Source of the DNA: Escherichia phage Ecwhy_1
Sequence record: MH791411.1
Reading direction: 5' to 3' (one strand)
DNA length: 64,000 bases
This document shows, piece after piece, positions 1,518 to 50,743 of this stretch (position 1 is the first letter of the stretch; every line of letters starts with the position of its first letter). The position numbers and the translations under genes were made by a program. The notes below the pieces were generated by a model. It was not told where the DNA came from, searched no databases, and was given only the letters and a program-made list of their open reading frames with translations.

Positions 1518-1553
1518 AATCAAATGAATGAACGAATTATATGGAGTCCAAAA

Positions 1554-4500: not shown

Positions 4501-7500
4501 TGTGGGATATTGATGGTACTATCGGTGATAGCAGTACTGGTACTATTTTGTCAGGTGAACGCCGTGGTCAATATGACAAATACAAGCGTTTCGGTGTACA
4601 GCCATTTAAAATCACTAAGACTGGCGAGAAAACCAGTACTGGTATTGATATTTGTGAAGTTGAGTATATTGCACCTGAAGTTTTAGGTCTTGTTAGTGGT
4701 AATTTAGATCATCGTGCAGAACCGTGGTCTTATGGTGACATGGGTGACATGGAATTCACTTACATGAACACTGCGATGTTTGCTTATGACCAAATGCTTC
4801 TTCTATACAAAGCAAAACCAGCACAGTTTGCAAACTATTACTGGGATACCCGTAATGATAACCTTAAACCAGTTTATACTGATGGTTCACAGTTCCTTTA
4901 TGGTGAAACTCGTAAGCGTCTAAACTTTGACAGTACTACATTAGTACATGGTGAGAAAAACACCCGTACTATCGGTTATCAAATGTTTGTTAGTGACTAT
5001 TTGATGTATCAGAATAAGAACATTACCACCAAATACGGTGACGTTGTTCGTTCTTCTTATGTCAATGTCGCTCACAAAATTGGTGGCTTTACTAAAGCAG
5101 ACCAATTGACATTCACTGCTAAATCTTTCGGTTTGATTTCACAAGAAAACCAAACTATCGGTCTAGTTCGTTCCAATAACATTCGCGATGAGCAAATGAG
5201 TGCAGTAAAAATTACTTGGAATGGTAGTGCATATCAAATTGATGGTTATGATTTAGTTGGTGCTAAATTTAAATATAAAATTCCAGTTAAAAATGGAAGA
5301 AAAGTAACTCTTAAATTGGAAGACAGAACTGTTGTTCATTACAATGAATGGAAATCTGAAGGTACATTAGAATATGGTAAAATATTCAATACATACCAAG
5401 AAGTTTATACTTTCATTTGTGGATATGGTGAATATCTAAAAGAACATGGCTGGATTTTTGAAGATGTAAATGATAGTGGTACTCAACAAGACTGGACAAC
5501 TATTGCTAAAGACTTTGTTATTTGGAGTCAGAATAATTTAAGTACTGGTGAGTTCATCTCCTGCACTCCAAGTGCAGCTAATGCTAAATTTGGTGCGGAT
5601 TTTGGTTCAGTTCAATCTGTTACACAGAATAGTGGTGGTGTTTGGTCACTACTCGATGATGAAAACCAAGGTATCCGTCAATATGAAATCGAAACTTCGC
5701 GTATCGGTAACGTATTCACAGTGAGAACTACATCTGAATCACAAAAACGTATGGCGTTGATTCGTTTGAGCCTAAGTTCATATGAACACGCAGTTGTTTT
5801 TGATGATAAAACTATCTTTGGTGATTACATTTACCAACCAACTTATGGTGCTATTCAAGAATTGATTAAAATGTATGGTTACATTACTGGGTCATGGACT
5901 GGTCGCCTACAAGCACCTGGTTTCATTATCCTAGAAGCAGGAACTTTACCATCATTTGAAAAATTAGTAACTGATTTTGAATTATATTATAATAGTGAAA
6001 CTCCTGTGAGTGATGTTCAGCTTCAAGAGTTATCAAATCACTTGATTGGCTATCAAACTCGTGATTATCTACAACGTATGATTAGTAGTGATGTTAGTCG
6101 TGTTGATTTCTATAAAGGATTCATTCATGACAAAGGTACTAACCAAGTAATGGAAAAAGTACTACGCGTTTCTAAATCTTACGACACTGATGAATATAAA
6201 GCACTTCAGGAATGGGCATTTAAGATTGGTACTTATGGTAATATCAATGGTAAGAAAAATCTACAATTTAAACTAATCAATGACCAATTTAAACAACAAC
6301 CACAGATGGTTTCGTTTGATGTTAATGCTACATCAAATGGTACTGGTAATGGTATTGTTTATTACGGTGAACAAGGGGTTGACTCACGCTGGATTACTCG
6401 TCCAAATGGTAAGTTTTCATTCCCAATGCGTAGTGGAAGAAGTGAGAATATCCAACTTCCAGACATTGGTCCTGTAACACTAGATGAAATTTCATACGTT
6501 ACTAAAGATTTCAGTACTGCATATAATGATCGTATCAATTATATGAATAACAGTGGTGAAATCCCAGATTCTGTATGGATGTTTAAAGATGGTAATGATT
6601 TGTGGAATATTTTCGAACTAGTAGACACTGAAGTTGAGATGCTCTCTATCGTTCCAATTGAAAATACCGATGTATATGCAGAACAATTCTGTAAAGTAAC
6701 TCTAAGTGATGATATCCCACTAAATGATGGTGATTATTATTACTTTGTTGATGAAACTAACTTTATGCCAGATACATTGACTATAGAAAGTCAATATTAT
6801 ACTGCGGGTAATGACCCTAGAGTTATGGTAGTTCCGTTTGACACTTCAATCACTATTGACTTCACTGATCCTGATACTCGCCCACGCTTGTATCGTTATG
6901 TTTCACGATTCAGTACTGAAGAGATGCGTCAGGAATACATTGACAGAAAATATAGTTTTAAAGCTCCACAAAGTACTTTGTTTGACCGCCCAACCACATA
7001 TGATGAGCGTACTAACATTACTGCGTTGTACCTAAACGTGTTTGACCCAATCAACGGTGTTATTCCTGGTGCAGCGATGCAGAACGTTACCTACACATCT
7101 CCAGTTGACCCAGCACAATACAACAGCAATGGTGAATTGATTCAAGCATGGGGTGCTGATAAAGTTGGTCAGGTTTGGTGGAACACCAGCACTGCTTTCT
7201 ACTTAGATTACACTCGTGCAATCTATGATGCTGATGGTAATGTGGATGTTGATGCAACAAATGAATATAAACGTTATAACTGGGGCAGATTGCTACCGCA
7301 CAGTACTGTTGATGTTCTTGAATGGGTATGTTCACCAGTTGAACCATATAACTGGGACAAATACTGCAAAGACGTTGCTAACAAAAATAAAAACAACACT
7401 ATGTACCTACCAAGCGGAACCGCATTGGAAGATAATTATAGTACGTTCTTAGAATATGATAGCACAACTGATACTTATGTTACAAAATACTATTTCTGGG

Positions 7501-10500
7501 TTCGTGATACAATCTATGTACCACCATTGCATTCCAGAACTAAATCTTGTACTGATATTGCTCGTATTATTAAAGAACCAGCACAGCTTAACATTCCTTG
7601 GTTTGCACCAATCAATGAAAGCTCGTTCATTCTAAGTAATATGCAATTTGAAGTCAACGATGACACAAGTATTTTAACTGTTTCTTATTACATGGATAAT
7701 ACTGAAGTTATTAAACATGACCAGTATCAATTATGTAAAGAAGGTGATAGCTATAACTTCAATCCATCAATCTGGACTTCTATGTGGAATTCTATGATTG
7801 GTCAAGAAACTACTGAATCAGGAACTGTTATTGATTTACTATATCCTTTAGTACCAAACGGTTTAGGTTCTAATAAGACTTGGTTCCAAGATGTAATTGA
7901 AGCTCGTAGAAACTTTGTAGAAAGTGCAAATAACTATTATCGCTCACAGAATATAACAACTAACACTGTTCTAATGGACGAAGTGTTTAATGTTAAAACT
8001 ACTGAAGTTAACCCGAATGAAGTATCATATCGTGTACTAACTTACAATAGTGAATTAGTCATTGCACCTGAAAGTGACAAGTTCAAAGAAAACGACGCAG
8101 TACTAGTAAGTACTAGTGGTGTATTACCTAACCCACTATCAACTAGCTCTGTATATTTTGTGCATATTGATGCTAATGGTTATATTCATCTAATGAATAG
8201 TCCATCAAGTGCTGGTAGTGTGGTTACCATTACATTGGAAAACCGTGGTGAAGGTCAACAGAAAATGATTAAACAATCAGACTATGTTGAAGCACTAGGA
8301 ACTTCATTGGACATGACCCAGTACTGGTCACTAGCAGATTGGTATGATATTGGCTACGATAAAAATACTGCATATACACAAGAATCCAGCCTAGAAGATG
8401 CAAACACTAAGAACTATCAAGTTGGTGACATTATCAGAATTACAGATGTTGATGGCATCTGGACATTGTACATTAAAGCACAATCACGTGATTCAGTTTA
8501 CTGGAAAGCAATTGGTCGTGAAAATAGTACAGTTGAATTGAATGATATGTTATACGCTGACTATACAGTTCGTGATGCTAATGGTTCGTTGAGTAATCGT
8601 GAGATTAACGTTCGTAAAGCACTAGCTTTATTGAAGAACTCATTCGACTTACATCAGAGTGAAATTGTGTTTGATATGGTTAAGTATGTTCACGTAGAAC
8701 AAAGCGTTGTTGATTGGGTATTCAAAACATCTTACATTTATATTGTAGGTTTAGAACAATCATTAGTACAGAACTATTCCAACGACAACTTGATTAATCA
8801 AATCGTTGAGTACTTTGAAGAAGTTAAACCATATAGAACTAAGATTCGTTCCCAGATTGAACAGAAAACTTCAGATGATGATTTAATTAAAGGTTTGTGT
8901 AATGATTTAGATCCTAATGGCTATATATTTGCAGATGGGACTTGGGTTAAAACGGAAAAAGACATTTGGGATTATGAATATGCTCAATTCAATGAGGTAA
9001 CTCAACGTTGGGAGCAAGTTGGTGAATTGCCAAGTGATTTCGTAACACCTAATCGCCGTTTCCAAGAAATTGATGTTATCATGCACTACGACAACACTCA
9101 ATGTAAACCAAATGATAATTTGGCAAGTGTTGATGTATTGGAAGAAGTGAATAAGAAATATCAATCTAATGCACAAGATGTTGTTAGTAATTTTGAATTA
9201 CAACGTTACAAATATACATTCCCAGAATACAGTGATGAAGATTTCGACCTATTGGTTGCTTATCAGATGCAATTGTATTACCCAGAATTGAACGTAACTC
9301 TAGGGATTGCTTACGGTGTTAACCAATGGTATGCAGACCATGCAGATGATTTGGTAGCAACCGCAGAATTCACAGAAACGTTGAATCGTGTATATAAAGA
9401 ATCAACACAAAATGAAATGTTTAATGACGTAAATCATTATGTTCAGTATAACACACTCTCTAACCGTTTGAAATTGTACACAGGTGCAGATGATGAAGTA
9501 ATTCATGATGAGGTTGGATGTGGATTTAGTGGGTTAACCTATGATGATAATCCAAGCACCAGACTACCGTTTGGTTATGCATCCAGTACTGATTATAACT
9601 TTGGTTACTTTGAAGTTAGTAGTGAGTTGTATAAAAAGTATGTTTCTTTAATTAAAGAAAACAATACTACTGCAACTGATGATGAAGTTAGAATTATACT
9701 TGAAGTTGAATATGGTGTTTATTCATATCGCCATGTAGATGAAGATGGAAATCAACGATTCTACAATGACGCAATTCATGTATTGTCTGGTATGCGTGGT
9801 TTGTATGACAAAGATGCTACCGACCATTATGAAAAGGCTGAAGAAATACTAAGTAGAATGCCTATTGATATTCATGCATTTACTATGATGCCACGAAAAT
9901 ATGTTTATGTTAATGTTAATGGTGTATACGAGAGTATCCCAGATGACCAAAGCATTGATGATTTCATGGAAGACAAATTCATAACTGACGGTCAACTAGT
10001 TCAATTGGCAGAAATAAATCTTGATGACTTACCTCTTGATAGAAATAACCCAATGTACAGTGATTATCAGCACATCCTAGATAGCATCACCGATGCTAAG
10101 TACTACGATGATATGAATGCATTTGATAACCTAGCACTTGAATCACAAACTTCCGAGTTAAAATGGGAAGTTGAAGGTGACGAAGTAGATCCGTACATAA
10201 TCGACATTTCTGATATTAACCCATCAGGAAGAAAGATTGGTCAGATTCGCTTCACAGTTGATGGTTATGGATTCAATAGTGTTTCACTAGTTCAATTGAG
10301 AGACAATAGTAGATATAAAACTGAAGGTATGGTTATCATCAACCCTTATAAAACAACAGAAGCAATTGTTAGTATTCCTTCTTACGCTAAGATTGAAAAT
10401 GATATTAGTAAATCATACAGTAAGTATGATGAAAAATACTTCTATAAAATTAAATCAATTGTTAGTGATACAGAAGCTGAAGTAATTGACAATACCCTAT

Positions 10501-11525
10501 CTGATGGTGATAAGGTTATGATATTCACAACTGATGGTGAAGATTATGTGAGATACCAAAACAATGCATGGGAAACCATCTTGAGTGTATCAAAAATCAA
10601 AACTGACACCACACCAACCTTGTACACAGTAAGAAACACTGCGAACGGAACTGTAGAACTACTAGATAGTACTGGAGTTGTACTTCGTTATGATAACATC
10701 ACTAAACAACAACAGAATGAACCAGCAATACCTCTAGCATTGAACATCGTTCGTATTAGAACCTTTGCTGATCCAGAATTCTTGGTTGATGGTGTTAAGT
10801 TGTATGAAACAAATAGAAACTATGCTATCGACGCAATGAACTATGAAGTATTCTACGACACAACACTATACGGTGGTTCTTATAATGATGGAATTACACC
10901 AGATGACGTTGATGTTTGGGTAGTGTCTAACGAGATATTTGAAGTTGATGGTGTTACCATTGATAACGGATATAACTTACCAATTACTGGTGCAGGTGTT
11001 CTTAGTGAGTTAGTGAGAACCAAAATGACTGATAGTGTGGAAATTAACGTGTTCGAGTATGATGTTGGTATTATTCAACCAGTACTGAATACTGAAGGGG
11101 TATGGGAATATGCATATCCACTAGTTAGTGATACATATATTGGTGTAGTTGGTGGAACCGTAACTAACATTACTGCTATCAGTGAAGAAAATACTACTTA
11201 TGTTTCACAACCAGATTCAGTTAGTCCATATAGTGTTACTAATAATGTTCTATCTGGTGCTGGTGCAAGTATGAATGATATTATTTCTCTTGGTTTTGAA
11301 AAAGTTGAAGTACGTTTTGCAAATAACTTACTCCGTGGGGTAATGTATAGTGCAGAACACGACTTTAAAGAGAATGTGACATATTCATTTAATGGCTTGA
11401 ACTTAGGTAAAGTTAATTTACTAAAACGTTATAGTGTTAACAGTTATCCAATCGAACTATCTGTTTACTCCGATAGTTTGCAAATAAGTGGTACTGACAT
11501 TAAAAATCTATTAGAAGTTAAATAA
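1554..11525 (+). CDS. Giant virion-associated protein (~3,323 aa), function unknown; putative tail/baseplate structural protein
   Basis: Uninterrupted 10 kb ORF. ATG at 1554 has GGAG 7 nt upstream; the track's upstream ATG at 1524 lacks an RBS. Sits in the late structural block and ends at a strong bidirectional terminator. Confidence 0.7.
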   Translation: MTNNFKFQPTQMAEAVQKKLFIKRLPEWMQGLEDIQKVSDDVIQQWFNPAENELVDGYIGDMGSPAAAGNIFLHESTVARQLYQLSTAYVSRNDDSSIRSIQFYDDLVGYMNHYGALTENESRLFNGKFYSWTPPINPNKMNNYSSYLWDSKNSYNITTPDYIVMERGAENGNTWSLQNFWYTLGETLEDGTILTEELMQDSRFVRARAPIIEYNKNIELMNYGTKFRGTVDLFSDIIKPEDIVQKDINSGIRIDGIIPQDGMRILFTSIGNNGENNRIYKVYVKRMQDGTRVYGLALDPDEESESRPSGEPQDGDVVLIIKGNEFGNSSMYWDGSHWIQAQSKTSVNVFPQFQLYDRNGVKLNNTTTYPSSTFTGSSLFGFKINYNYATDSVYGYNIELGDYNYYTYENFLQSTRYTYEHLGVEVEIDGLYYYNVIGEGNTMNLETDWVRSTEYSKQYVKQTPQVERTVMFRVFSTVYDMESFKDPVEGMYAYVIEVDRTYQYYKAERETYLDWHVIVGDGVQSVKYNHTFELAQKVLDNSDDIIELVVDGVEIKEYTKTVVNNQVQSITIDSSVDLDEDSVVQIRTYSSTITPNKELGAYEVPINLQNNPYNSNIEYINQGDYTLHFQDIIQKNITSGSADDFNNYEERLAAGLVNNGVGTKIIQNEASMLPLMAHTANEDIDLFESIMFMQAEYFRFINKFNTQMLRLYEEDPSAFLGNSASNIVDAILTAINMGRDSTFPFYYDNVASTAGFIRAFVPPTPQFLGILQAYTPQKATFLTAGSKSSCYNISHTGIISKAYRVINGVDKMDDVVFELENRIFNSIDLTFKDIDYKPVLNSEDLFPTPYFTGTDYSAEEKKTLLLRGYINFTATNGISNSTHDYDANNWRTWNYTGSYYVVDGQRTEIPARGSWRAIYTDQYGTYRPATHPWEMMGFSQRPTWWNQEYEPTAVQVGEREGDVVYVYEALVMNENGDLVPSGLWDIDGTIGDSSTGTILSGERRGQYDKYKRFGVQPFKITKTGEKTSTGIDICEVEYIAPEVLGLVSGNLDHRAEPWSYGDMGDMEFTYMNTAMFAYDQMLLLYKAKPAQFANYYWDTRNDNLKPVYTDGSQFLYGETRKRLNFDSTTLVHGEKNTRTIGYQMFVSDYLMYQNKNITTKYGDVVRSSYVNVAHKIGGFTKADQLTFTAKSFGLISQENQTIGLVRSNNIRDEQMSAVKITWNGSAYQIDGYDLVGAKFKYKIPVKNGRKVTLKLEDRTVVHYNEWKSEGTLEYGKIFNTYQEVYTFICGYGEYLKEHGWIFEDVNDSGTQQDWTTIAKDFVIWSQNNLSTGEFISCTPSAANAKFGADFGSVQSVTQNSGGVWSLLDDENQGIRQYEIETSRIGNVFTVRTTSESQKRMALIRLSLSSYEHAVVFDDKTIFGDYIYQPTYGAIQELIKMYGYITGSWTGRLQAPGFIILEAGTLPSFEKLVTDFELYYNSETPVSDVQLQELSNHLIGYQTRDYLQRMISSDVSRVDFYKGFIHDKGTNQVMEKVLRVSKSYDTDEYKALQEWAFKIGTYGNINGKKNLQFKLINDQFKQQPQMVSFDVNATSNGTGNGIVYYGEQGVDSRWITRPNGKFSFPMRSGRSENIQLPDIGPVTLDEISYVTKDFSTAYNDRINYMNNSGEIPDSVWMFKDGNDLWNIFELVDTEVEMLSIVPIENTDVYAEQFCKVTLSDDIPLNDGDYYYFVDETNFMPDTLTIESQYYTAGNDPRVMVVPFDTSITIDFTDPDTRPRLYRYVSRFSTEEMRQEYIDRKYSFKAPQSTLFDRPTTYDERTNITALYLNVFDPINGVIPGAAMQNVTYTSPVDPAQYNSNGELIQAWGADKVGQVWWNTSTAFYLDYTRAIYDADGNVDVDATNEYKRYNWGRLLPHSTVDVLEWVCSPVEPYNWDKYCKDVANKNKNNTMYLPSGTALEDNYSTFLEYDSTTDTYVTKYYFWVRDTIYVPPLHSRTKSCTDIARIIKEPAQLNIPWFAPINESSFILSNMQFEVNDDTSILTVSYYMDNTEVIKHDQYQLCKEGDSYNFNPSIWTSMWNSMIGQETTESGTVIDLLYPLVPNGLGSNKTWFQDVIEARRNFVESANNYYRSQNITTNTVLMDEVFNVKTTEVNPNEVSYRVLTYNSELVIAPESDKFKENDAVLVSTSGVLPNPLSTSSVYFVHIDANGYIHLMNSPSSAGSVVTITLENRGEGQQKMIKQSDYVEALGTSLDMTQYWSLADWYDIGYDKNTAYTQESSLEDANTKNYQVGDIIRITDVDGIWTLYIKAQSRDSVYWKAIGRENSTVELNDMLYADYTVRDANGSLSNREINVRKALALLKNSFDLHQSEIVFDMVKYVHVEQSVVDWVFKTSYIYIVGLEQSLVQNYSNDNLINQIVEYFEEVKPYRTKIRSQIEQKTSDDDLIKGLCNDLDPNGYIFADGTWVKTEKDIWDYEYAQFNEVTQRWEQVGELPSDFVTPNRRFQEIDVIMHYDNTQCKPNDNLASVDVLEEVNKKYQSNAQDVVSNFELQRYKYTFPEYSDEDFDLLVAYQMQLYYPELNVTLGIAYGVNQWYADHADDLVATAEFTETLNRVYKESTQNEMFNDVNHYVQYNTLSNRLKLYTGADDEVIHDEVGCGFSGLTYDDNPSTRLPFGYASSTDYNFGYFEVSSELYKKYVSLIKENNTTATDDEVRIILEVEYGVYSYRHVDEDGNQRFYNDAIHVLSGMRGLYDKDATDHYEKAEEILSRMPIDIHAFTMMPRKYVYVNVNGVYESIPDDQSIDDFMEDKFITDGQLVQLAEINLDDLPLDRNNPMYSDYQHILDSITDAKYYDDMNAFDNLALESQTSELKWEVEGDEVDPYIIDISDINPSGRKIGQIRFTVDGYGFNSVSLVQLRDNSRYKTEGMVIINPYKTTEAIVSIPSYAKIENDISKSYSKYDEKYFYKIKSIVSDTEAEVIDNTLSDGDKVMIFTTDGEDYVRYQNNAWETILSVSKIKTDTTPTLYTVRNTANGTVELLDSTGVVLRYDNITKQQQNEPAIPLALNIVRIRTFADPEFLVDGVKLYETNRNYAIDAMNYEVFYDTTLYGGSYNDGITPDDVDVWVVSNEIFEVDGVTIDNGYNLPITGAGVLSELVRTKMTDSVEINVFEYDVGIIQPVLNTEGVWEYAYPLVSDTYIGVVGGTVTNITAISEENTTYVSQPDSVSPYSVTNNVLSGAGASMNDIISLGFEKVEVRFANNLLRGVMYSAEHDFKENVTYSFNGLNLGKVNLLKRYSVNSYPIELSVYSDSLQISGTDIKNLLEVK

Positions 11526-37644: not shown

Positions 37645-37676
37645 AAAAAAGGGAGACATAAGTCTCCCTTTTCTTT
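37645..37676. terminator. Bidirectional terminator at the strand-switch point
   Basis: AAAAAAGGGAGAC-ATAA-GTCTCCCTTTTCTTTT between the convergent tail fibre (+) and thymidylate synthase (-) genes. Confidence 0.75.
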
Positions 37677-38605
37677 TATACAGCCATTGGTGCTTTGATT
37701 GTTGGCATTGGATCGTAATTAACTAATTTGAAAGAATCCATAGTGAAATCTTCAATATCAGTAATAGTAGGATCTAGCCATAATTCTGGTAATGTACGTG
37801 GTTCACGTTGGAGTTGCTCTTTTACTTGTTCAATATGGTTTTGATAGATATGGCAGTCGCCACCATTCCAAATAAATTCACCAACATCTAACCCTGTAAT
37901 TTGTGCAATCATATGAGTTAGTAGTGAGTAACTACTAATATTAAATGGCACACCAAGGAATAGATCAGCACTACGTTGATGAAGAATACAACTTAGTTTA
38001 CCCTGTACAACACAAAACTGCACAAAGCTATGACAGGGTGGCAAAGTCATAGCATCAAGCTCACCAACGTTCCATGCACTTAGAATGTGACGACGACCGT
38101 ATGGATCAGTATTGATACCTTCAATAACTTGTTTTAGCTGGTCAGTTACACGACGCATAATAACACCATGTGAACCAGTATAATCAATAACTTTATACCC
38201 TTTATCTTTTAGTTCTTGAATTTCTTCAGTACTGGAACTGAATTTATAATCTTCCCATTCACGCCATTGTTTACCATAAACTGGGCCAAGCTCACCATCA
38301 GAATACCCAAGGCTTACACCTTGATTAAGGTAGTTGTCTGTCCAAATTGTTTTCTTTTCTACATCACGTGTCCCGTGTAAAATTTCACACAGACGACGCT
38401 CATCGTGAGAACCTTCAATAAACCATAACAATTCTGAAGTCATTGCTTTCCAAGCCAAACGTTTAGTAGTTACTGCTGGGAAACCTTCTTTTAGGTCAAA
38501 ACGCATTTGTTGTCCGATTAGCTTGATAGTGCCAACACCAGTACGATCAACGCTTTCGACACCTTGATCCAGAATTCTTTGATATAGTTCTTGTAGTTGT
38601 TTCAT
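37676..38605 (-). CDS. thyA: Thymidylate synthase (ThyA/Td type)
   Basis: Active-site LPPCH, GVPFN (Asn indicates dUMP specificity), DRTGVGT, HIYQNH and QLQREPR motifs; carries an insertion relative to E. coli ThyA as in T4/eukaryote-type enzymes. Confidence 0.9.
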   Translation of the reverse strand: MKQLQELYQRILDQGVESVDRTGVGTIKLIGQQMRFDLKEGFPAVTTKRLAWKAMTSELLWFIEGSHDERRLCEILHGTRDVEKKTIWTDNYLNQGVSLGYSDGELGPVYGKQWREWEDYKFSSSTEEIQELKDKGYKVIDYTGSHGVIMRRVTDQLKQVIEGINTDPYGRRHILSAWNVGELDAMTLPPCHSFVQFCVVQGKLSCILHQRSADLFLGVPFNISSYSLLTHMIAQITGLDVGEFIWNGGDCHIYQNHIEQVKEQLQREPRTLPELWLDPTITDIEDFTMDSFKLVNYDPMPTIKAPMAV

Positions 38606-39198
38606 TTTACGTCCTTGAAAAATGTAATAAAGTGTTCCATGTGTTTTTGTGTAGCATTACGTGAACCAATCCCAGTCCAATTACCGTGTGGTGCTGGTAT
38701 TGAGAATGTTTCAGTAAACTCTTTCAGTACTGTATCATAATAAAATACAGAGCGAGTGTTCATATCATAACAATATATTTCTGGATTGTCAACTGAATCC
38801 ATATACATCTGTACGGCCCATGCAGTTCCACCTGAAACTTGCGTAGGTGATGTAATATTTGCAATACAATATACTCTTTTTGTATTAAGTATCTGGTAAC
38901 TATTCCTTGCAAGTAAGTTATATACATACGAACCAGGCTTAGGAACTTTACGGCGTAAAGAGTAACATGCAATGTTTAATTGTTTTAATATTGAACTATC
39001 ACAAAGGATATTGGGTGGAATTTCTAATATAGTATTTTCATCTACGCTGCTTTGGTGACCCTTGAATGAAAAATTTATTACTTCAAATCCATTGTCTTTT
39101 GCATAGATAGAAAAAAGGCGGTCAGCACCTGCTGCCCCGCCACTGAAACATACATTAGATAAACCATTGATTGCTTCATCTAATTCTATTTTATTCAT
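38602..39198 (-). CDS. Rossmann-fold SLOG/DprA-like nucleotide-binding protein (tentative)
   Basis: FSGGAAGADR glycine-rich motif resembles the DprA/SLOG signature; stop overlaps the thyA start (ATGA), so the two are translationally coupled. Confidence 0.45.
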   Translation of the reverse strand: MNKIELDEAINGLSNVCFSGGAAGADRLFSIYAKDNGFEVINFSFKGHQSSVDENTILEIPPNILCDSSILKQLNIACYSLRRKVPKPGSYVYNLLARNSYQILNTKRVYCIANITSPTQVSGGTAWAVQMYMDSVDNPEIYCYDMNTRSVFYYDTVLKEFTETFSIPAPHGNWTGIGSRNATQKHMEHFITFFKDVK

Positions 39199-39203
39199 TT
39201 ATA

Positions 39204-39857
39204 TTATTTTGCTTTACGTTCAGCAAATGCCTGTTTAACTTTCTCAATTGCTTTGGTTTGTGAAATTCCTTCTGGGATTTCAATATAGAAAGTTTTGCTA
39301 TCAGGTGCTACAGGTGTTGCTTGAACTTGTGGACGTAGAGATGGTTCTAAGTTGTAAGCACGTTCAAAGTGCTCTTTAGCCAACTGCTCATAACGTTGTG
39401 CATCTTTAAGTAGTTGCTCAACAATGGTAGCTTCTTCAACAGAAGTATCGACTTCTTGTGGCTTGAATGGGTTGTATTCTTTAACTTTACCATCTTCATG
39501 TTTTTTAGCATCATTATCATTGATTGCGTTGTTTAGAACATCAAGAGAAATCTTACTGTTTCCACCAACATGCATATCAATATCACAAGTACGTGCACGA
39601 CGCAAATGTTGTAGATTATGAAGAACATCTAGCATTTTGCGACCGTCTAGATGACCAATCTTATGCATAACTTCCCACAAATCTACATTCGATTGACCTT
39701 GATTCATTACTAAATCTGCAACAGATTGAGCATATGCTTCAGGAAGTGAGTCGCGATAAACAATGAGACAATGTTCTGGATCATCAGGGAGTGAACGCCA
39801 TACCACAAATACTCGTGAACCCGTATTACGTACTACACCAACGTGACGAATAGCCAT
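39204..39857 (-). CDS. Hypothetical protein
   Basis: 217-aa ORF in the operon small acidic gene - 217 aa - SLOG-like - thyA. Confidence 0.55.
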   Translation of the reverse strand: MAIRHVGVVRNTGSRVFVVWRSLPDDPEHCLIVYRDSLPEAYAQSVADLVMNQGQSNVDLWEVMHKIGHLDGRKMLDVLHNLQHLRRARTCDIDMHVGGNSKISLDVLNNAINDNDAKKHEDGKVKEYNPFKPQEVDTSVEEATIVEQLLKDAQRYEQLAKEHFERAYNLEPSLRPQVQATPVAPDSKTFYIEIPEGISQTKAIEKVKQAFAERKAK

Positions 39858-39859
39858 TA

Positions 39860-40090
39860 TTATTCTCCTTTATTTTGTTCAGCAGCAGCTTGTGCAGCAT
39901 CAGCTTCTTCTTGTGCTTTGATATCTTCGAGTGCAGAGTTAGCAAACTCAACAAACTTAGATACGACTGGAGCAACATCAACAAGTTCTTCGACTTTAAA
40001 TGAATTACGAGCCACAGCAGCTTCCATGATTTTAGCAGCGTTGATTAGGTCGATTAGGGTTAGTTGAATTTTTTCTGGTTCTTGTTCCAT
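39860..40090 (-). CDS. Small acidic protein (first gene of the thyA operon)
   Basis: ATG at 40090 has GGAGAG 7 nt upstream; the track's longer ORF (to 40189) runs through the promoter/terminator and is rejected. The product is strongly acidic. Confidence 0.5.
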   Translation of the reverse strand: MEQEPEKIQLTLIDLINAAKIMEAAVARNSFKVEELVDVAPVVSKFVEFANSALEDIKAQEEADAAQAAAEQNKGE

Positions 40091-40124
40091 TTTAATACTC
40101 TCCATGTATGTTGTTACAAATATA

Positions 40125-40152
40125 ATTATATCACCTTTTTCCAAGCTGTCCC
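40125..40152 (-). promoter_or_regulatory. Sigma70-type promoter with extended -10
   Basis: Minus strand reads GGGACA-N16-(TGa)TATAAT: -10 at 40125-40130, -35 at 40147-40152. Confidence 0.5.
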
Positions 40153-40153
40153 G

Positions 40154-40187
40154 CTGAAAAAAGTAGAGAACGGAATTTTCCGTTCTC
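40154..40187 (-). terminator. Rho-independent terminator after VWA gene
   Basis: GAGAACGG-loop-CCGTTCTC hairpin followed on the minus strand by a U-tract (plus-strand A-run 40157-40162). Confidence 0.55.
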
Positions 40188-40199
40188 ATTATTTAGTAC

Positions 40200-41609
40200 T
40201 TAGCTACGTTGACGCTTTTTGTCAGCTTCATATTCGTAGTGTACAGTTTCGCCAAATGGTGCTTGTTTGTTAGGATTACTGTGGATAACAAACAGTGTCT
40301 TACAGTAATCAGGATCACCCCATGACTGCCACGGCTCACCATCTGTAAACATAATAAGCTGTTTAGGCTTATAGTTGTCATGCTTCATATGAACCCATAC
40401 TGCTTCAAAGTCAGTACCACCACCACCTTTCACTGGATATTCGAGAATCTTACTCTCTTCACCAGTTTTGTAATCTTTCACAGTATAAACTTCAGTATCG
40501 AACGTCATGATACGGATTTTAAATTGTTTAAACTGCTTAGTGATACCCAGTACTTCACTGATGAAATCACGGAGCATATCTTCAGAGATAGAACCGGATG
40601 CATCTAGTGCAATTGCAATATCAATATCATCATCTGGTTTCATACCAGGGAAGATTGGATTCCCGTAGAATGAACCAGAACTACCAAAACCAGCACCCCA
40701 TGAACGACGATTAGGATTTTGATAAGTTGCATCAGACTTCAACCAGCTACGCAGTGTGCGGTGAAGTTTGGAACGCCAGTCAATCTTAGGTTCTTTGAAG
40801 TTGTTAATCATACGTGCGATTTCAGCAGGAGTACCACCTGCACGAGCAGCATTCATCATTGCTGTTTTGAAATCATCCATATAATCACGTTTTTGTTTAT
40901 CACTTGAACCACCTTCTTGACCTTCTTGTGGAACGTCATGCTGGTCGATTGTTGTACCTTTGCCTTTACCATCTTTGATATCACCAAAAGTACCGCGTGA
41001 TTTACCTTCACCCTCACCACTACCAGCCTGTGGATTTCCTTCACCTTCTCCGTCTTGATCCTGCTTATCTTCTTCTTCGAGAATGTTATAAATCTCTTCA
41101 GCAGTCATACCATCGTACTTTTTATCGTACAGCCATTGGCTTTGGATTTTACCAATTTTATCACGAACAAGAATCTGGTTAATTGCATAGTCAGCAGCAC
41201 GGTTATAACGCTGCGGGTCACGCATACCACGACGCAAGAAGTGGTCATATGCACAGTGAAGAATCTCATGACAGATAACTGCAATCAGGTTTTCATCGGT
41301 CAAACCTTCTGTCATTTCTTTAAGTTGTTCTTCAGTTACTTCAGGATGTTTCTCACGAATTGCTTCTTCGTATGCTGACTTTTTGGATTGGTCCTGAATA
41401 CCCATGATGAATTCTACGTTGTAGAATAAATGCTTACCATCTACAGCCAAAGTACGACACCATGTGTTGTTTGCAACTGGACGCAGACGAGAAGCCAGTA
41501 CACCAAAGAATGGGAATGTTAGCATTAAAGATGTGCGAGCTAAGATCAGACGATCTTGACATTCTTTCTGGAGAGCCGGAGTAACATCACTGAAACGTTT
41601 ATCTGACAT
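40200..41609 (-). CDS. VWA-domain protein with N-terminal HExxH metallopeptidase-like domain (MoxR partner, DUF2201-like)
   Basis: HEILHCAYDH motif in the N-terminal half and MIDAS motif DASGS in the C-terminal half; directly downstream of the MoxR-like ATPase. Confidence 0.75.
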   Translation of the reverse strand: MSDKRFSDVTPALQKECQDRLILARTSLMLTFPFFGVLASRLRPVANNTWCRTLAVDGKHLFYNVEFIMGIQDQSKKSAYEEAIREKHPEVTEEQLKEMTEGLTDENLIAVICHEILHCAYDHFLRRGMRDPQRYNRAADYAINQILVRDKIGKIQSQWLYDKKYDGMTAEEIYNILEEEDKQDQDGEGEGNPQAGSGEGEGKSRGTFGDIKDGKGKGTTIDQHDVPQEGQEGGSSDKQKRDYMDDFKTAMMNAARAGGTPAEIARMINNFKEPKIDWRSKLHRTLRSWLKSDATYQNPNRRSWGAGFGSSGSFYGNPIFPGMKPDDDIDIAIALDASGSISEDMLRDFISEVLGITKQFKQFKIRIMTFDTEVYTVKDYKTGEESKILEYPVKGGGGTDFEAVWVHMKHDNYKPKQLIMFTDGEPWQSWGDPDYCKTLFVIHSNPNKQAPFGETVHYEYEADKKRQRS

Positions 41610-41635
41610 TTGTATTTCCTCGTTTAGTTAAGATA

Positions 41636-41661
41636 AAAGAAGGATACCATGTGGTATCCTC
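41636..41661 (-). terminator. Hairpin/terminator between the MoxR and VWA genes
   Basis: GGATACCA-CA-TGGTATCC near-perfect palindrome followed on the minus strand by UUCUUUUAU; may act as an attenuator within the operon. Confidence 0.45.
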
Positions 41662-41684
41662 CTTGTCAACACTCTTTTTAATTA

Positions 41685-43013
41685 TTAACCAAGAGAGCGT
41701 GCTTTACGTACTAGGTCAGAGTACTTCATAACGAAGTCTTTAAACGCTGGTACATCTTTAATCGTAATCGCTACTTTATGAAGCGTGATGGTACGAATCG
41801 CCAGTACTGCCAGTTCTGCTTGAGTTGCAGAGAAGTTATGGTCTAGGAAGGTGATGAAGTTGTTGCACAGCTTACCCCAATCTTCCACTGGTAGACGTTG
41901 TTCTTGCTTCTCATTGTAGAGGTCGATAATTTTGTAAACCAGATTCAGAGTGATGAAGTAGTTCGCGGAAATATCAAGCGAAGCATCAATCTCTTTAATC
42001 TCACCCTGTAGGATGGACATGGTATCTGGTAGTTTAGCTACGTTATCAACATACTCGATGTATTCAGTTGCTACGCCTTCACCAACACGACCTGCAATCA
42101 TCGCACGGAACACTTCTTTATCAATGTTCTTAACTTTCTTCAGATCTTCGTAGCGTGCTACTGCTTCCCATGAACGTGGAGAAGTACCACCACAGTGAGA
42201 AGGATCTTGTGGGCTAAGGGTGTTGAAGTGTTTAGCACCAGTGTTGTTGATGAACGCTACAGTTGCTGGGTTCAAACGCTTACCAATCGCATAATCGTTA
42301 ATCCAATCTTGATGATAAGGAATCATTTCGATGTGGGTCATACGGTCACGCAGTGGTGTAGCTAGAGAGAACGTTACACCGCCATCAGTTTCACGGTTAC
42401 CTGCTGCGAGAATCAGTGCAGTCTTAGGTAGCTTCATCTCACCAACACAACGGTCGAGGATTAGCTGATAAGACGCTGCCTGTACAATCGGCATTGCAGA
42501 GTTGATTTCGTCAAACAGAATAACACCTTTCCAATCTGGAGACAGTTTCAGTACTTTAGGTGCTGCCCACACAACTGCTGTTTCAGCGATGTAATCTTGT
42601 GCACTAGCCAGTTCAGATTCAATCAGTTGCTTACCATCCATATCAAGGAACACTTTCTCTGGAACTGGGATACCGCGAAGGTCACTTGGTTCAATCTGAG
42701 ACAAACGGAAATCGATAAAGTTAGTGTCTTGGTCGATTAGTTTGGCTTCAAACGCTGCCAGTTCACGGCGAAGTTGATCAGCATTTTCAGTATCAGCTTC
42801 GATTTGTTGTTTCATGAACTCAATTTTTGCCACGTTATCTTTACGCAGTGGGTAGTTCTCATCAGCGTATTGACGTGCGATAGCAGATTTACCGATACCA
42901 GGGCTACCCCAAATCATCAGGCTATCTTGAATCATGTCAGCCAGTGCCATTGCTTCTTTAGCTTTCTTAGGAGTCAGTTTTACGTTCAGGATATCGTTGT
43001 TTTGAGTAGACAT
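41685..43013 (-). CDS. MoxR/CbbQ-type AAA+ ATPase
   Basis: Walker A GSPGIGKS, Walker B ILFDEINSA, sensor AAGNRE; RBS AAGGAAA upstream of the ATG. Confidence 0.8.
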   Translation of the reverse strand: MSTQNNDILNVKLTPKKAKEAMALADMIQDSLMIWGSPGIGKSAIARQYADENYPLRKDNVAKIEFMKQQIEADTENADQLRRELAAFEAKLIDQDTNFIDFRLSQIEPSDLRGIPVPEKVFLDMDGKQLIESELASAQDYIAETAVVWAAPKVLKLSPDWKGVILFDEINSAMPIVQAASYQLILDRCVGEMKLPKTALILAAGNRETDGGVTFSLATPLRDRMTHIEMIPYHQDWINDYAIGKRLNPATVAFINNTGAKHFNTLSPQDPSHCGGTSPRSWEAVARYEDLKKVKNIDKEVFRAMIAGRVGEGVATEYIEYVDNVAKLPDTMSILQGEIKEIDASLDISANYFITLNLVYKIIDLYNEKQEQRLPVEDWGKLCNNFITFLDHNFSATQAELAVLAIRTITLHKVAITIKDVPAFKDFVMKYSDLVRKARSLG

Positions 43014-43184: not shown

Positions 43185-43212
43185 ATTATATCACATCGTT
43201 CAGGCTTGTCAA
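43185..43212 (-). promoter_or_regulatory. Sigma70-type promoter (tandem copy 1)
   Basis: Minus strand reads TTGACA-N16-(TGTGa)TATAATGACCAC; -10 at 43185-43190, -35 at 43207-43212. Confidence 0.6.
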
Positions 43213-43276
43213 CAACTTTTTTATTTCTTTTTCAATCTCACATCTTGTGATTTTGAAAACTTGCTTCGTGGTGGTC

Positions 43277-43304
43277 ATTATAACACATCATTCGGCGTTG
43301 TCAA
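43277..43304 (-). promoter_or_regulatory. Sigma70-type promoter (tandem copy 2)
   Basis: Minus strand reads TTGACA-N16-(TGTGt)TATAATGACCAC; about 45 bp is a direct repeat of copy 1, 90 bp away. Confidence 0.6.
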
Positions 43305-49866: not shown

Positions 49867-49877
49867 GGGTTATCTCC

Positions 49878-50654
49878 TTATAATCCAATGCTACCGAAAA
49901 CACGGTCAATGATATCTAATCCTTGGTTTACGTTTTCAGGTAAAAGTGAATTTATTCTAGTACTGTACATTTCTTCGATATTATCGAATTGGATACAATT
50001 ATCAGGTTTTATTGTAATAACCATTTCAACAGGAGAACTTGAACTATAGTCAAGTGAATCATATGATATATTTTGTATAACACATCCTGTTAGTACAAAG
50101 TACTCCATAACGCCAGCACTATTGTATGATGAACCACCAATGAACTGATCAACAGCGTTGACTAATCCAGTATTGTTGGTAGCGGCAGTTGTTGCATTAA
50201 CTAATGTGTTTCTTCCCAAGTCTTCTAGTGTATCATCAGAGTTGCGACCATTCAACATCTGAATGACAATTCCGAACTTATATGAACCATAATCATGGTC
50301 AGTTCTGGAAGTAATTCTTCGTTGAAAATCTAATTGTTTCTGTAATTGTCTTGACAAGGCTTTTGCTGATGCATTACCAACTGAATCACGGATAGTTAAA
50401 GTAATTGGGTCCCAATCGTGACTACCAATGTAAGATGTATTTGTTGTAAATTGATATAGTTTATGAGTACTGAAAGTAACAGTAGGTCTATCAACTTTAT
50501 CAACATCTAATGCAATGTGATCACGCTCATCTATATCAGTACCGAAATTATATACAATAACACGAAATTTGTATTTTGCTTTCGGTTGTAACATTGAACG
50601 GTTACGTCCTGATGGTAGAGGAACGCCATATTTATTAATCATGTTATTTGCCAT
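49878..50654 (-). CDS. Tail tube protein paralog 2
   Basis: N-terminus YGVPLPSGRNRSMLQPKAKYKFRV matches tube paralog 1 (YGVPLAGGGRISMKQPKAKYKFRV); RBS AAAGAGG. Confidence 0.55.
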   Translation of the reverse strand: MANNMINKYGVPLPSGRNRSMLQPKAKYKFRVIVYNFGTDIDERDHIALDVDKVDRPTVTFSTHKLYQFTTNTSYIGSHDWDPITLTIRDSVGNASAKALSRQLQKQLDFQRRITSRTDHDYGSYKFGIVIQMLNGRNSDDTLEDLGRNTLVNATTAATNNTGLVNAVDQFIGGSSYNSAGVMEYFVLTGCVIQNISYDSLDYSSSSPVEMVITIKPDNCIQFDNIEEMYSTRINSLLPENVNQGLDIIDRVFGSIGL

Positions 50655-50688
50655 AGCAACCTCTTTTATTTTATAAGGTATTATACTT

Positions 50689-50694
50689 TATTTA
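50689..50694 (-). promoter_or_regulatory. Late-promoter-like TAAATA motif for tube paralog 2
   Basis: Minus strand reads gcTAAATAaa 34 nt upstream of the ATG at 50654. Confidence 0.35.
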
Positions 50695-50697
50695 GCA

Positions 50698-50727
50698 TAA
50701 AAAAAGCCCCGAACTAGTTCGAGGCTT
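50698..50727 (-). terminator. Rho-independent terminator after tube paralog 1
   Basis: AGCCTCGAAC-TA-GTTCGGGGCT hairpin followed by TTTTTTT on the minus strand. Confidence 0.55.
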
Positions 50728-50743
50728 ACGTTTAAAAGAAAAA

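What the first reader, a model, noticed from the sequence alone, without database searches (positions are those of the whole stretch)
37676..39198. Thymidylate synthase translationally coupled to a DprA/SLOG-like Rossmann protein
The thyA start overlaps the stop of a 198-aa protein carrying a GGAAGAD glycine-rich motif. The coupling suggests a shared nucleotide-metabolism role. The ThyA is clearly dUMP-type (GVPFN) with an insertion.
Basis: partly seen in the sequence, partly recalled or inferred. Interest (0 to 1): 0.4.

Follow-up and report, generated by a model that had tools for sequence, protein, structure and literature searches.

The report
Phage thymidylate synthase beside SLOG protein
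A giant E. coli phage carries an ordinary thymidylate synthase gene whose start overlaps the end of a small nucleotide-binding (SLOG-fold) gene of unknown ligand; both are already annotated in near-identical phages, and the overlap is a local feature of this phage lineage rather than a conserved partnership.

Summary
thyA (37676-38605, minus strand, 309 aa) starts in an ATGA overlap with the stop of a 198-aa gene (38602-39198). The window is 99.8% identical to Rak2/PBECO4-like jumbo coliphages, where the two genes are annotated 'thymidylate synthase' and 'DprA-like'/'DUF2493'.

ThyA is canonical. It has the catalytic Cys191 and the dUMP-specifying Asn222. Both of its insertions have precedents in solved thymidylate synthases (T4 Td; PDB 3v8h).

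The 198-aa protein is a confident SLOG fold (pLDDT 97). It is not DprA proper. Its motif order is circularly permuted (SGGAxGAD ... GGT ... GIGSR), its only strong structural match is 3imk, and Pfam DprA does not match it.

thyA adjacency exists only in the Rak2-like clade. In most genera of that clade another gene sits between the two. In more distant large myoviruses the recurrent neighbour is a T4 gp1-like dNMP kinase: directly upstream in 26 of 65 loci, within 6 kb in 39.

Elsewhere the contexts point to ADP-ribose processing or DNA transactions. A nucleotide-type ligand is likely, but which one is unresolved.

Verdict: real, mostly ordinary, with modest interest.

The parts
37676..38605 (-). 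thyA: canonical thymidylate synthase, 309 aa
   Evidence: Pfam PF00303 at 3.6e-101, 338 bits. phrog_160 at 9.7e-116. Best PDB sequence matches are thymidylate synthases at 1e-80. Key residues by alignment to E. coli ThyA: R21, E58, R171/R172, C191, R211, D214, N222, H252, Y254, C-terminal ...APMAV.
38150..38251 (-). 34-aa surface insertion in ThyA (residues 119-152), replacing about 5 residues of E. coli ThyA
   Evidence: Gap between the two HMMER stretches against E. coli and M. tuberculosis TS. It aligns residue by residue with a similar insertion in PDB 3v8h, a 327-aa TS. The smaller upstream insert (residues about 80-105) matches T4 Td, PDB 1tis.
38602..39198 (-). 198-aa stand-alone SLOG-fold protein (PHROG 768), circularly permuted, cpYpsA-like
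39121..39144 (-). SGGAAGAD loop (residues 19-26): glycine-rich loop with the GxD signature
   Evidence: S19, G20, A22, G24 and D26 are invariant in 48 homologues down to 25% identity. GxD/E is the predicted substrate-binding signature of the YpsA clade (PMC6459960).
38824..38832 (-). GGT motif (residues 123-125), start of the conserved SGGTAWAVQM
   Evidence: G123, G124, T125 and A128 are invariant. This is the loop where LOG enzymes carry PGGxGTxxE. By my sequence reading, the position of the LOG Glu is occupied here by the invariant A128.
38659..38673 (-). GIGSR motif (residues 176-180) on the last core strand, near the C-terminus
   Evidence: G176, I177, G178 and R180 are invariant and S179 is over 90% conserved. 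In canonical DprA-type SLOG proteins the G-S-R loop follows strand 1 at the N-terminus (my knowledge). Its C-terminal position here, after strand 174-178 and before helix 184-191, indicates a circular permutation.
38602..38605 (-). ATGA start/stop overlap between the SLOG gene and thyA
   Evidence: Direct reading. 121Q has TAATG and RaK2 has a 2-nt spacer.
38612..38616 (-). AAGGA Shine-Dalgarno-like sequence for thyA inside the SLOG coding sequence
   Evidence: Direct reading. The same AAGGA is present in 121Q and RaK2.
37645..37674 (.). Bidirectional terminator-like hairpin between thyA and the convergent structural gene
   Evidence: 13-pair stem followed by a T run on the minus strand, 11-pair on the plus strand.
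39204..43013 (-). Four upstream genes packed on the same strand: AAA ATPase (41685-43013), DUF2201 metallopeptidase+VWA (40200-41609), 109-aa (39860-40189) and 217-aa (39204-39857) proteins of unknown function
   Evidence: ORFs and gaps of 2-75 nt. Pfam results, PHROGs. The whole block is syntenic in all 16 Rak2-like loci.
43185..43304 (-). Two tandem perfect sigma-70 consensus promoters (TTGACA-16-TATAAT with TG), preceded by A-rich tracts, upstream of the ATPase gene
   Evidence: Only three such perfect sites occur in the 64-kb window. The third, at 13886-13913 (minus strand), has nearly the same flanking sequence.
54573..55199 (-). dNMP kinase gene next to the tail sheath gene: the position where distant phages carry their SLOG homologue
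   Evidence: WPEC3 annotation. Atu_ph07, Phosso and several IMG/VR loci have the order dNMP kinase, SLOG, tail sheath.

Best explanation
This is the 3' end of a tightly packed six-gene block on the minus strand of a Rak2/PBECO4-like jumbo coliphage. The order is AAA ATPase, DUF2201 VWA/metallopeptidase, two unknowns, SLOG, thyA. Two consensus sigma-70 promoters precede the block and a hairpin terminator follows it.

thyA encodes an ordinary dUMP-to-dTMP methyltransferase of the T4 Td type, with a surface insertion that also occurs in a solved thymidylate synthase.

The 198-aa protein is a stand-alone, circularly permuted SLOG domain (cpYpsA-like, PHROG 768). It keeps all three ligand loops of the superfamily (SGGAxGAD, GGT, GSR) plus invariant R98 and Q102. 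It lacks the DprA accessory domains, the DprA motif order and the LOG catalytic Glu.

Inferred, not shown: it binds a phosphorylated nucleotide-type small ligand, either a (d)NMP or an ADP-ribose derivative. It would act as a binder, sensor or processing enzyme, not as a DprA-type recombination mediator.

The overlap with thyA lets thyA be translated from the same mRNA. It is a product of genome compaction in the Escherichia/Klebsiella branch, not a conserved two-enzyme module.
For: - Identity of the phage and existing annotation.
- ThyA.
- SLOG fold and nearest structure.
- Invariant pocket motifs in 48 homologues down to 25% identity.
- Permuted motif order, and weak Pfam cpYpsA (PF12694) hits in three relatives.
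- No Pfam DprA hit for the window protein; only 2 of 48 relatives give weak hits.
- The family pI ranges from 5.2 to 9.7, and the Rak2 clade is acidic to neutral.
- thyA adjacency occurs only in Rak2-like loci, and the coupling only in two lineages.
- Overlaps are frequent in this genome.
- Promoters and terminator.
- Nucleotide-type contexts elsewhere: dNMP kinase, dUTPase, NADAR and Acb1 neighbours, NADAR and histidine-phosphatase fusions.
- Iyer et al. 2022 place most viral SLOGs in the YpsA-like clade (PMC9503650).
Against: - No ligand or activity was tested, and I had no model coordinates to inspect the pocket.
- The permutation rests on motif order, predicted secondary structure and the 3imk match. 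That 3imk is the Pfam cpYpsA structure is from my memory.
- A Pfam scan of an artificially re-permuted sequence barely improved the YAcAr match: 19.5 against 19.1 bits.
- Some contexts favour DNA binding: Cr30 places the gene directly after the gp47/gp46 recombination nuclease genes. Flavobacterial homologues sit with a WYL regulator and topoisomerase I. Helicase fusions exist.
- Adjacency to two different dNMP enzymes in two lineages could mean a genuine metabolic partnership.
- The promoters and terminator are consensus matches only, and weaker hairpins lie inside the block.
Confidence: 0.6

Rival explanations
1. The SLOG protein is a working partner in phage dNTP synthesis. It would bind or process a deoxynucleoside monophosphate, for example as an N-glycosidase removing an unwanted (d)NMP, or as a regulatory or scaffold subunit feeding ThyA and the dNMP kinase. 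That would explain why it is translationally coupled to these enzymes.
For: - A T4 gp1-like dNMP kinase (PF21448 at 2.5e-15, phrog_139 at 8e-42) lies directly upstream on the same strand in 26 of 65 distant viral loci, often with a 4-nt overlap. It lies within 6 kb in 39 loci.
- The kinases themselves are only 35-47% identical to one another.
- The arrangements vary: the kinase is upstream in most loci and downstream in L017 and L032.
- In the Rak2-like clade the partner is ThyA. One locus has a dUTPase neighbour.
- Iyer et al. 2022 report SLOG-guanylate kinase fusions (PMC9503650).
Against: - The kinase-linked homologues form one related subfamily (a single linkage group at 40% identity), so the linkage may have arisen once and persisted as synteny.
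- In this phage the kinase sits beside the tail sheath gene without the SLOG gene. Kinase position therefore follows module synteny, not function.
- The LOG catalytic Glu appears to be replaced by an invariant Ala (sequence-level inference).
- No kinase or ThyA fusion appeared among the ten mid-length and four giant fusion proteins scanned out of the top 150 relatives.
Confidence: 0.3
2. The protein is an anti-defence factor. It would sequester or cleave ADP-ribose-derived immune signals (such as the cyclic ADP-ribose isomers of Thoeris) or other NAD-derived molecules, as predicted for viral YpsA-like SLOG domains.
For: - Iyer et al. 2022 (PMC9503650) predict this role for most viral SLOG domains. 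They find them in 31% of jumbo phages, often fused to Macro or NADAR domains.
- Within this family, a 2,942-aa protein carries a NADAR domain just after the SLOG domain.
- One relative is fused to a histidine phosphatase.
- One locus has a NADAR neighbour and another an Acb1 anti-CBASS neighbour.
- The family also sits inside giant multidomain phage proteins.
- Strong sigma-70 promoters fit early expression.
Against: - These contexts are rare compared with the dNMP kinase linkage.
- No similarity to a characterised signal-binding SLOG such as ThsA appeared among the top structural matches.
- The Rak2-like block holds no other recognisable anti-defence gene.
Confidence: 0.25
3. The protein is a DprA-like single-stranded-DNA binder that helps load the phage recombinase, substituting for the missing UvsY mediator. 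This is what the 'DprA-like DNA recombination-mediator' annotation implies.
For: - PHROG 768 carries that name.
- RaK2 has no detectable UvsY (PMC3622015), and Iyer et al. 2021 suggested DprA-type SLOG proteins as substitutes in jumbo phages (PMC7824862).
- In Caulobacter phage Cr30 the gene abuts the gp47/gp46 recombination nuclease genes.
- Flavobacterial homologues precede a WYL/WCX regulator and topoisomerase I.
- Helicase fusions exist.
Against: - Pfam DprA does not match the window protein.
- The motif order is permuted, and there is no SAM or C-terminal DprA domain in 198 residues.
- The best structural match is 3imk, not DprA.
- Only three conserved basic residues (R83, R98, R180), and the Rak2-clade proteins have pI 5.2-7.0. 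DprA and ShosA use an extensive positive surface (PMC11961720).
Confidence: 0.15
4. The SLOG protein is an effector or signal-handling part of the phage's AAA ATPase plus VWA/metallopeptidase module encoded in the same block, by analogy with bacterial vWA-MoxR conflict systems that include SLOG-fold domains.
For: - ATPase, DUF2201 VWA/metallopeptidase, two unknowns, SLOG and thyA are syntenic in all 16 Rak2-like loci and share promoters and a terminator.
- Kaur et al. 2020 list SLOG among vWA-associated domains (PMC7159879).
Against: - None of the 65 distant viral loci or 28 bacterial loci has the ATPase or VWA gene near the SLOG gene.
- Terminator-like hairpins separate ATPase, VWA and the downstream genes.
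- The DUF2201 pair is not shown to be a vWA-MoxR system of that type.
Confidence: 0.07

Closest known systems
Thymidylate synthase ThyA/Td (EC 2.1.1.45), T4 Td type
   Same: Full-length Pfam match. All catalytic and dUMP-binding residues are present. It shares the T4 Td-type small insert. Homologues in RaK2 and CBB are treated as td in the literature.
   Different: A 34-aa extra loop (residues 119-152) is absent from E. coli and T4 enzymes but similar to that of PDB 3v8h. The gene lies among structural genes.
cpYpsA (Pfam PF12694; PDB 3imk, 'putative molybdenum carrier protein', function unknown)
   Different: The window protein has no PF12694 hit. It is 40 residues longer, with a helical insert (about 46-105) and extra hairpins (141-170). 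Foldseek TM is only 0.47-0.57.
YAcAr / DUF2493 (Pfam PF10686), YpsA-like clade of SLOG
   Same: The SGGAxGAD loop and following helix and strand match model positions 31-60. 11 of 48 relatives give weak hits. The fEgEco12 record uses this name.
   Different: Below the gathering score (19.1 against 28.2 bits). The first 30 model positions have no N-terminal counterpart.
DprA/Smf and the DprA-like antitoxin ShosA
   Different: Permuted order, no SAM or C-terminal domains, not basic, no Pfam match. ssDNA binding and RecA interaction are untested.
LOG / PpnN nucleoside-5'-monophosphate N-glycosidases
   Different: The Glu of PGGxGTxxE is not conserved (invariant Ala by my sequence reading). No Pfam LOG hit.

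Membership tests
Thymidylate synthase ThyA (PF00303) | Full-length match to the family profile above the curated threshold | tested here: met
   338.2 bits against a cut-off of 24.3, covering residues 3-309 and model positions 2-266 of 266.
Thymidylate synthase ThyA (PF00303) | Catalytic nucleophile Cys in the P-C-H motif (E. coli C146) | tested here: met
   LPPCH with C191, aligned to E. coli APCH.
Thymidylate synthase ThyA (PF00303) | Asn that selects dUMP (E. coli N177; Asp in dCMP hydroxymethylases), plus the phosphate-binding arginines | tested here: met
   GVPFN with N222. R21, R171/R172 and R211 align to E. coli R21, R126/R127 and R166. The N/D rule is from established knowledge.
Thymidylate synthase ThyA (PF00303) | Methyl transfer with dihydrofolate release (as opposed to hydroxymethylation) | not testable with these tools
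   Consistent indirect evidence only: 50-60% identity of the C-terminal half to bacterial ThyA, and a DHFR gene in relatives (PMC3622015, PMC5259590).
SLOG superfamily | Rossmannoid fold whose nearest structures are SLOG members | tested here: met
SLOG superfamily | Conserved glycine-rich ligand loops (GSR-type, GGxxGxD-type, GGT-type) | tested here: met
   All three are invariant or nearly so in 48 homologues.
DprA/Smf (PF02481) | Match to the DprA profile | tested here: not met
   No hit at E up to 1 for the window protein. 2 of 48 relatives hit at 0.006 or weaker, below threshold.
DprA/Smf (PF02481) | Canonical order GSR, then SGxAxGID, then GGT, with flanking SAM and/or C-terminal domains | tested here: not met
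   The order here is SGGAxGAD (19-26), GGT (123-125), GIGSR (176-180). It is a single domain of 198 aa.
DprA/Smf (PF02481) | ssDNA binding and recombinase loading | not testable with these tools
   Only a proxy is available: pI 6.4, and 5.2-7.0 for the clade.
YAcAr / DUF2493 (PF10686) | Profile match above the gathering score | tested here: not met
   19.1 bits against 28.2, partial match to model positions 31-60 of 66.
cpYpsA (PF12694) | Profile match above the gathering score | tested here: not met
   No hit for the window protein. Three relatives score 16.5-19.5 bits against a cut-off of 26.2.
cpYpsA (PF12694) | Circularly permuted SLOG topology, with the strand-1 unit at the C-terminus | tested here: inconclusive
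   Motif order and predicted secondary structure fit, and 3imk is the best match. There was no explicit superposition, and the re-permuted sequence did not clearly improve Pfam matching.
LOG (cytokinin riboside 5'-monophosphate phosphoribohydrolase) | PGGxGTxxE motif with the catalytic Glu | tested here: not met
   The sequence is SGGTAWAVQM, with A128 invariant at the position I equate with the Glu. The equivalence comes from sequence spacing, not from structure.
PHROG 768 | Profile match | tested here: met
   4.7e-27, 95.8 bits, residues 4-164.

The most novel reading that the evidence does not exclude
This permuted SLOG family has about 2,800 clusters at 50% identity, mostly in large myoviruses. 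It could be an unrecognised component of phage deoxynucleotide metabolism: a dNMP-binding or dNMP-cleaving protein that works with the dNMP kinase and, in Rak2-like phages, with thymidylate synthase. That would add a new enzyme or regulator to the classical T4-type dNTP-synthesis scheme.
Probability: 0.25. Interest if true: 0.6.

Novelty: new member of a known kind. Interest (0 to 1): 0.3.

Why it matters
As it stands this is mainly an annotation correction. 'DprA-like DNA recombination-mediator protein' overstates what is known about a widespread phage protein. It is better described as a circularly permuted, YpsA-like SLOG domain with an intact ligand pocket.

The useful lead is the family's repeated placement next to dNMP-handling enzymes: a dNMP kinase in many large myoviruses, ThyA here, and a dUTPase once. 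If that reflects function, it would reveal a missing step or control point in phage nucleotide supply. If the ligand is instead an ADP-ribose-type immune signal, the protein would be a common anti-defence factor of jumbo phages. A ligand screen on one small soluble protein would address either reading.

Tried and rejected
- Sequence searches of PDB with the protein and with a 48-sequence profile gave only noise. Only structure comparison connected it to solved proteins.
- A Pfam scan of an artificially re-permuted sequence (C-terminal 33 residues moved to the front) did not clearly improve the YAcAr match: 19.5 against 19.1 bits, model positions 21-60 against 31-60. The permutation is therefore not proven by sequence.
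- I checked whether the 217-aa upstream protein could be a diverged dNMP kinase, because it is the same size and in the same position as the kinase in distant loci. By eye it has no P-loop, and Pfam gives no kinase hit. Rejected.
- I checked whether thyA is split or carries an intron, because two relatives list 'thymidylate synthase (x2)'. In the window it is one uninterrupted 309-aa ORF.
- Pfam and PHROG scans of 14 fusion proteins found only histidine phosphatase, NADAR and an unknown PHROG. No kinase or ThyA fusion turned up.
- I searched for a T4-type late promoter (TATAAATA) upstream of the genes. There are none in the whole window.
- Burroughs et al. 2015, the primary SLOG classification paper, was not in the library. 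Family definitions come from later papers by the same group, Pfam names and my memory.
- A census of neighbours in the 26 viral loci lacking a nearby kinase showed no recurrent partner.
Full report
**What is there**

The window matches Rak2/PBECO4-like jumbo Escherichia phages. A 3.2-kb stretch around the finding is 99.7-99.8% identical to fEgEco12, WPEC3, WPEC5 and vB_Ec-M-J, and about 82% identical to PBECO4 and 121Q. In those records the two genes are already annotated: 'thymidylate synthase', and 'DprA-like DNA recombination-mediator protein' or 'DUF2493 domain-containing protein'.

thyA is 37676-38605 (309 aa) and the second ORF is 38602-39198 (198 aa). The junction reads TTT TTC AAG GAC GTA AAA TGA AAC. 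The thyA ATG overlaps the TGA stop, and an AAGGA ribosome-binding sequence lies 6 nt upstream, inside the upstream gene.

**ThyA is canonical**

- It matches Pfam PF00303 end to end (3.6e-101) and solved bacterial thymidylate synthases at about 1e-80.
- By alignment to E. coli ThyA it has R21, E58, R171/R172, the nucleophile C191 in PPCH, R211, D214, the dUMP-selecting N222 in GVPFN, H252, Y254 and the C-terminal APMAV.
- The extra length comes from two insertions. A small one matches T4 Td (PDB 1tis).
- A 34-residue loop (119-152) aligns residue by residue with a comparable insertion in PDB 3v8h, a 327-aa thymidylate synthase.

Both insertions therefore fall in known variable surface regions of the family. 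Nothing points to a hydroxymethylase or a modified-base pathway. Relatives also encode dihydrofolate reductase (PMC3622015, PMC5259590).

**The 198-aa protein is a SLOG fold but not DprA**

- PHROG 768 matches at 4.7e-27.
- Pfam gives only a sub-threshold partial hit to YAcAr/DUF2493 (19.1 bits against a cut-off of 28.2) and no DprA hit.
- With a 48-sequence alignment, AlphaFold2 gives a very confident model (pLDDT 97, pTM 0.92).
- Foldseek finds only 3imk with high probability.

The invariant residues across homologues down to 25% identity are S19, G20, A22, G24, D26 (SGGAxGAD), A77, R98, Q102, G123, G124, T125, A128 (GGTAWA) and G176, I177, G178, R180 (GIGSR). These are the three ligand loops of the superfamily, but in a rotated order. 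The GSR loop normally follows the first strand. Here it follows the last core strand, near the C-terminus.

This fits the Pfam family named 'circularly permutated YpsA' (PF12694), which three relatives hit weakly. From memory, that family was built around 3imk. I could not superpose structures, and a re-permuted sequence did not clearly improve Pfam matching. The permutation is well supported but not proven.

The Glu of the LOG motif PGGxGTxxE appears to be replaced by an invariant Ala. This is a sequence-level inference.

**Is the coupling to thyA meaningful?**

I fetched 79 viral loci encoding relatives and mapped the window's genes onto them.

- All 16 Rak2-like loci (the 14 IMG/VR loci plus WPEC3 and fEgEco12; at least 50% identity) keep the whole block: ATPase, VWA, 109-aa, 217-aa, SLOG, thyA.
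- None of the 65 more distant loci (29-39% identity) has a ThyA within 6 kb.
- Within the Rak2-like clade the tight junction exists only in the Escherichia and Klebsiella branches. It is ATGA in the window and its two near-identical relatives, TAATG in 121Q and a 2-nt spacer in RaK2.
- In the other 11 loci (GAP32, CBB, Serratia BF, Yersinia and their relatives) thyA starts 230-330 bp downstream. In at least 10 of them a conserved 87-125-aa gene (phrog_22463) fills the gap.
- I counted about seven overlapping same-strand junctions in this 64-kb stretch.

The overlap is therefore genome packing in one lineage. It is weak evidence for a shared function.

**What the family keeps company with**

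In the distant viral loci the commonest neighbour is a T4 gp1-like deoxynucleoside monophosphate kinase (PF21448 at 2.5e-15, phrog_139 at 8e-42).

- It lies directly upstream on the same strand in 26 of 65 loci, often with a 4-nt overlap. It lies within 6 kb in 39 loci.
- The typical orders are kinase, SLOG, tail sheath (Atu_ph07, Phosso and others), or tail sheath on the opposite strand followed by kinase and SLOG.
- In the window's phage the kinase (54573-55199) sits directly beside the tail sheath gene without a SLOG gene. So in Rak2-like phages the SLOG gene lies about 16 kb away from that position, next to a different dNMP enzyme.

This is suggestive, but the kinase-linked homologues form one related subfamily (15 clusters at 60% identity, a single linkage group at 40%). 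The linkage may be inherited synteny.

Other contexts point elsewhere:
- NADAR and histidine-phosphatase fusions.
- NADAR, Acb1, dUTPase and DNA ligase as single neighbours.
- Helicase and giant multidomain fusions.
- Position after the gp47/gp46 recombination nuclease genes in Caulobacter phage Cr30.
- A conserved SLOG, WYL/WCX regulator, topoisomerase I arrangement in Flavobacteriaceae chromosomes: the WYL protein follows in 17 of 28 loci and topoisomerase I in 13.

**Transcription context**

The six genes are packed with gaps of 2-75 nt. Upstream of the ATPase gene lie two tandem perfect sigma-70 consensus promoters, each preceded by an A-rich tract (43304-43277 and 43212-43185). Only three such perfect sites occur in the window, and they share flanking sequence. 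A strong bidirectional hairpin terminator follows thyA (37645-37674).

This suggests an early or middle, host-polymerase-driven island inside a structural gene region. These are consensus matches only. Weaker hairpins inside the block and a promoter-like site inside the SLOG gene (38792-38764) could modulate expression.

**Most likely function**

Shown: a canonical ThyA, a SLOG-fold protein with a fully conserved ligand site, and a lineage-specific start/stop overlap.

Inferred: the SLOG protein binds a phosphorylated nucleotide-type small molecule rather than acting as a DprA recombination mediator. The reasons are as follows.
- Its closest structure is the YpsA-like 3imk.
- It has the GxD signature of that clade (PMC6459960).
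- It lacks DprA's accessory domains and motif order.
- It has only three conserved basic residues.
- It is acidic to neutral in the Rak2 clade (pI 5.2-7.0). DprA-like ShosA uses a broad positive surface (PMC11961720).

Which ligand it binds is open. My rough split is: a (d)NMP-related role 0.3, an ADP-ribose or immune-signal role as predicted for viral SLOGs (PMC9503650) 0.25, ssDNA binding as suggested for jumbo phages lacking UvsY (PMC7824862, PMC3622015) 0.15, and a role in the neighbouring ATPase/VWA module under 0.1.

**Novelty and verdict**

Both genes are already in GenBank with sensible superfamily-level names, and viral SLOG domains have been surveyed. This work adds three things: the evidence that this family is permuted and is not DprA proper, the limited phylogenetic reach of the thyA coupling, and the family's recurrent linkage to the dNMP kinase.

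The finding is real and mostly ordinary. It is a new member of a known kind, with a moderate lead for experiment. Interest 0.3.

Noticed in passing
window 43185-43304 (-) and 13886-13913 (-): Only three perfect TTGACA-16-TATAAT promoters occur in the 64 kb. They share flanks (A-rich tract, GTTGACAA...GATGTG[A/T]TATAATGACCAC). Two are in tandem ahead of the ATPase-to-thyA block and one is ahead of the Lon-like protease gene. They look like a phage early/middle promoter class that marks non-structural islands inside the structural region.
   Followed up: partly
window 40200-41609 (-) and 41685-43013 (-): The 469-aa protein is annotated 'HNH endonuclease' in several GenBank relatives. It is in fact a DUF2201 metallopeptidase (HExxH) plus VWA protein (PF13203 at 3e-36, PF09967 at 1e-21), paired with an AAA ATPase. 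The GenBank annotation is probably wrong.
   Followed up: partly
window 37676-38605, 39204-39857, 41685-43013 (homologues in phAPEC6): Virion mass spectrometry of the related phage phAPEC6 lists thymidylate synthase (gp259c, 3 peptides), a 25-kDa hypothetical (gp262c, the size of the 217-aa protein) and the ATPase (gp265c). The SLOG protein is not listed (PMC7247149). This recalls old claims (from memory) that T4 Td is a baseplate component. It could also be carry-over.
   Followed up: no
whole window: The T4 late-promoter octamer TATAAATA is absent on both strands (0 found, 7 expected from shuffles). The shorter ATAAATA occurs 10 times, mostly 35-60 nt upstream of structural genes (for example 1511, 19599, 35638 on the plus strand; 47240, 47762, 51472, 54538 on the minus strand). 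This matches the late motif proposed for phage CBB.
   Followed up: partly
L086-L108 (Flavobacterium, Paenimyroides, Myroides chromosomes): Bacterial homologues of the SLOG protein are followed, 2-6 nt downstream, by a 309-aa WYL+WCX domain protein in 17 of 28 loci. DNA topoisomerase I comes next in 13 loci, and MiaB lies upstream. This is a conserved chromosomal SLOG-WYL pair of unknown role.
   Followed up: partly
L079 28-10722; P0188, P0204, P0235, P0239, P0240, P0241: The same SLOG domain occurs inside giant proteins of 2,400-4,050 aa, one of them with a NADAR domain directly after it. In L079 it lies inside a 3,564-aa ORF. These are probably polyvalent injected proteins. crAss-like phages also carry it in proteins of 1,278-1,451 aa.
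   Followed up: partly
L083 (Caulobacter phage Cr30) 4998-6055: The SLOG gene lies between the gp46 recombination nuclease subunit and a peptide deformylase gene. This echoes the E. coli smf(dprA)-def neighbourhood (from memory). It may be coincidence.
   Followed up: no
window 38764-38792 (-): A promoter-like site (TTGACA-17-TATGAT with TG, 11 of 12) lies inside the SLOG coding sequence, about 160 nt upstream of the thyA start. It could give thyA an independent transcript.
   Followed up: no
window 49875-51427 (-), 1522-11523 (+), 16803-17267 (+), 58644-59054 (-): From the annotation of a near-identical phage: three consecutive tail-tube paralogues, a 3,333-aa virion protein, and two separate Nudix hydrolase genes (one directly after a tail sheath-like gene). 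A CCA-adding enzyme lies at 59164-60279.
   Followed up: no
L004-L015, about 5700-6010 and 6590-6940: Most Rak2-like phages outside the Escherichia group carry two extra small genes flanking the SLOG gene: a roughly 102-aa one upstream (phrog_2831) and a roughly 114-aa one downstream (phrog_22463). RaK2 (L004) has only the upstream one. The window phage lacks both, so its block is a compacted version.
   Followed up: partly
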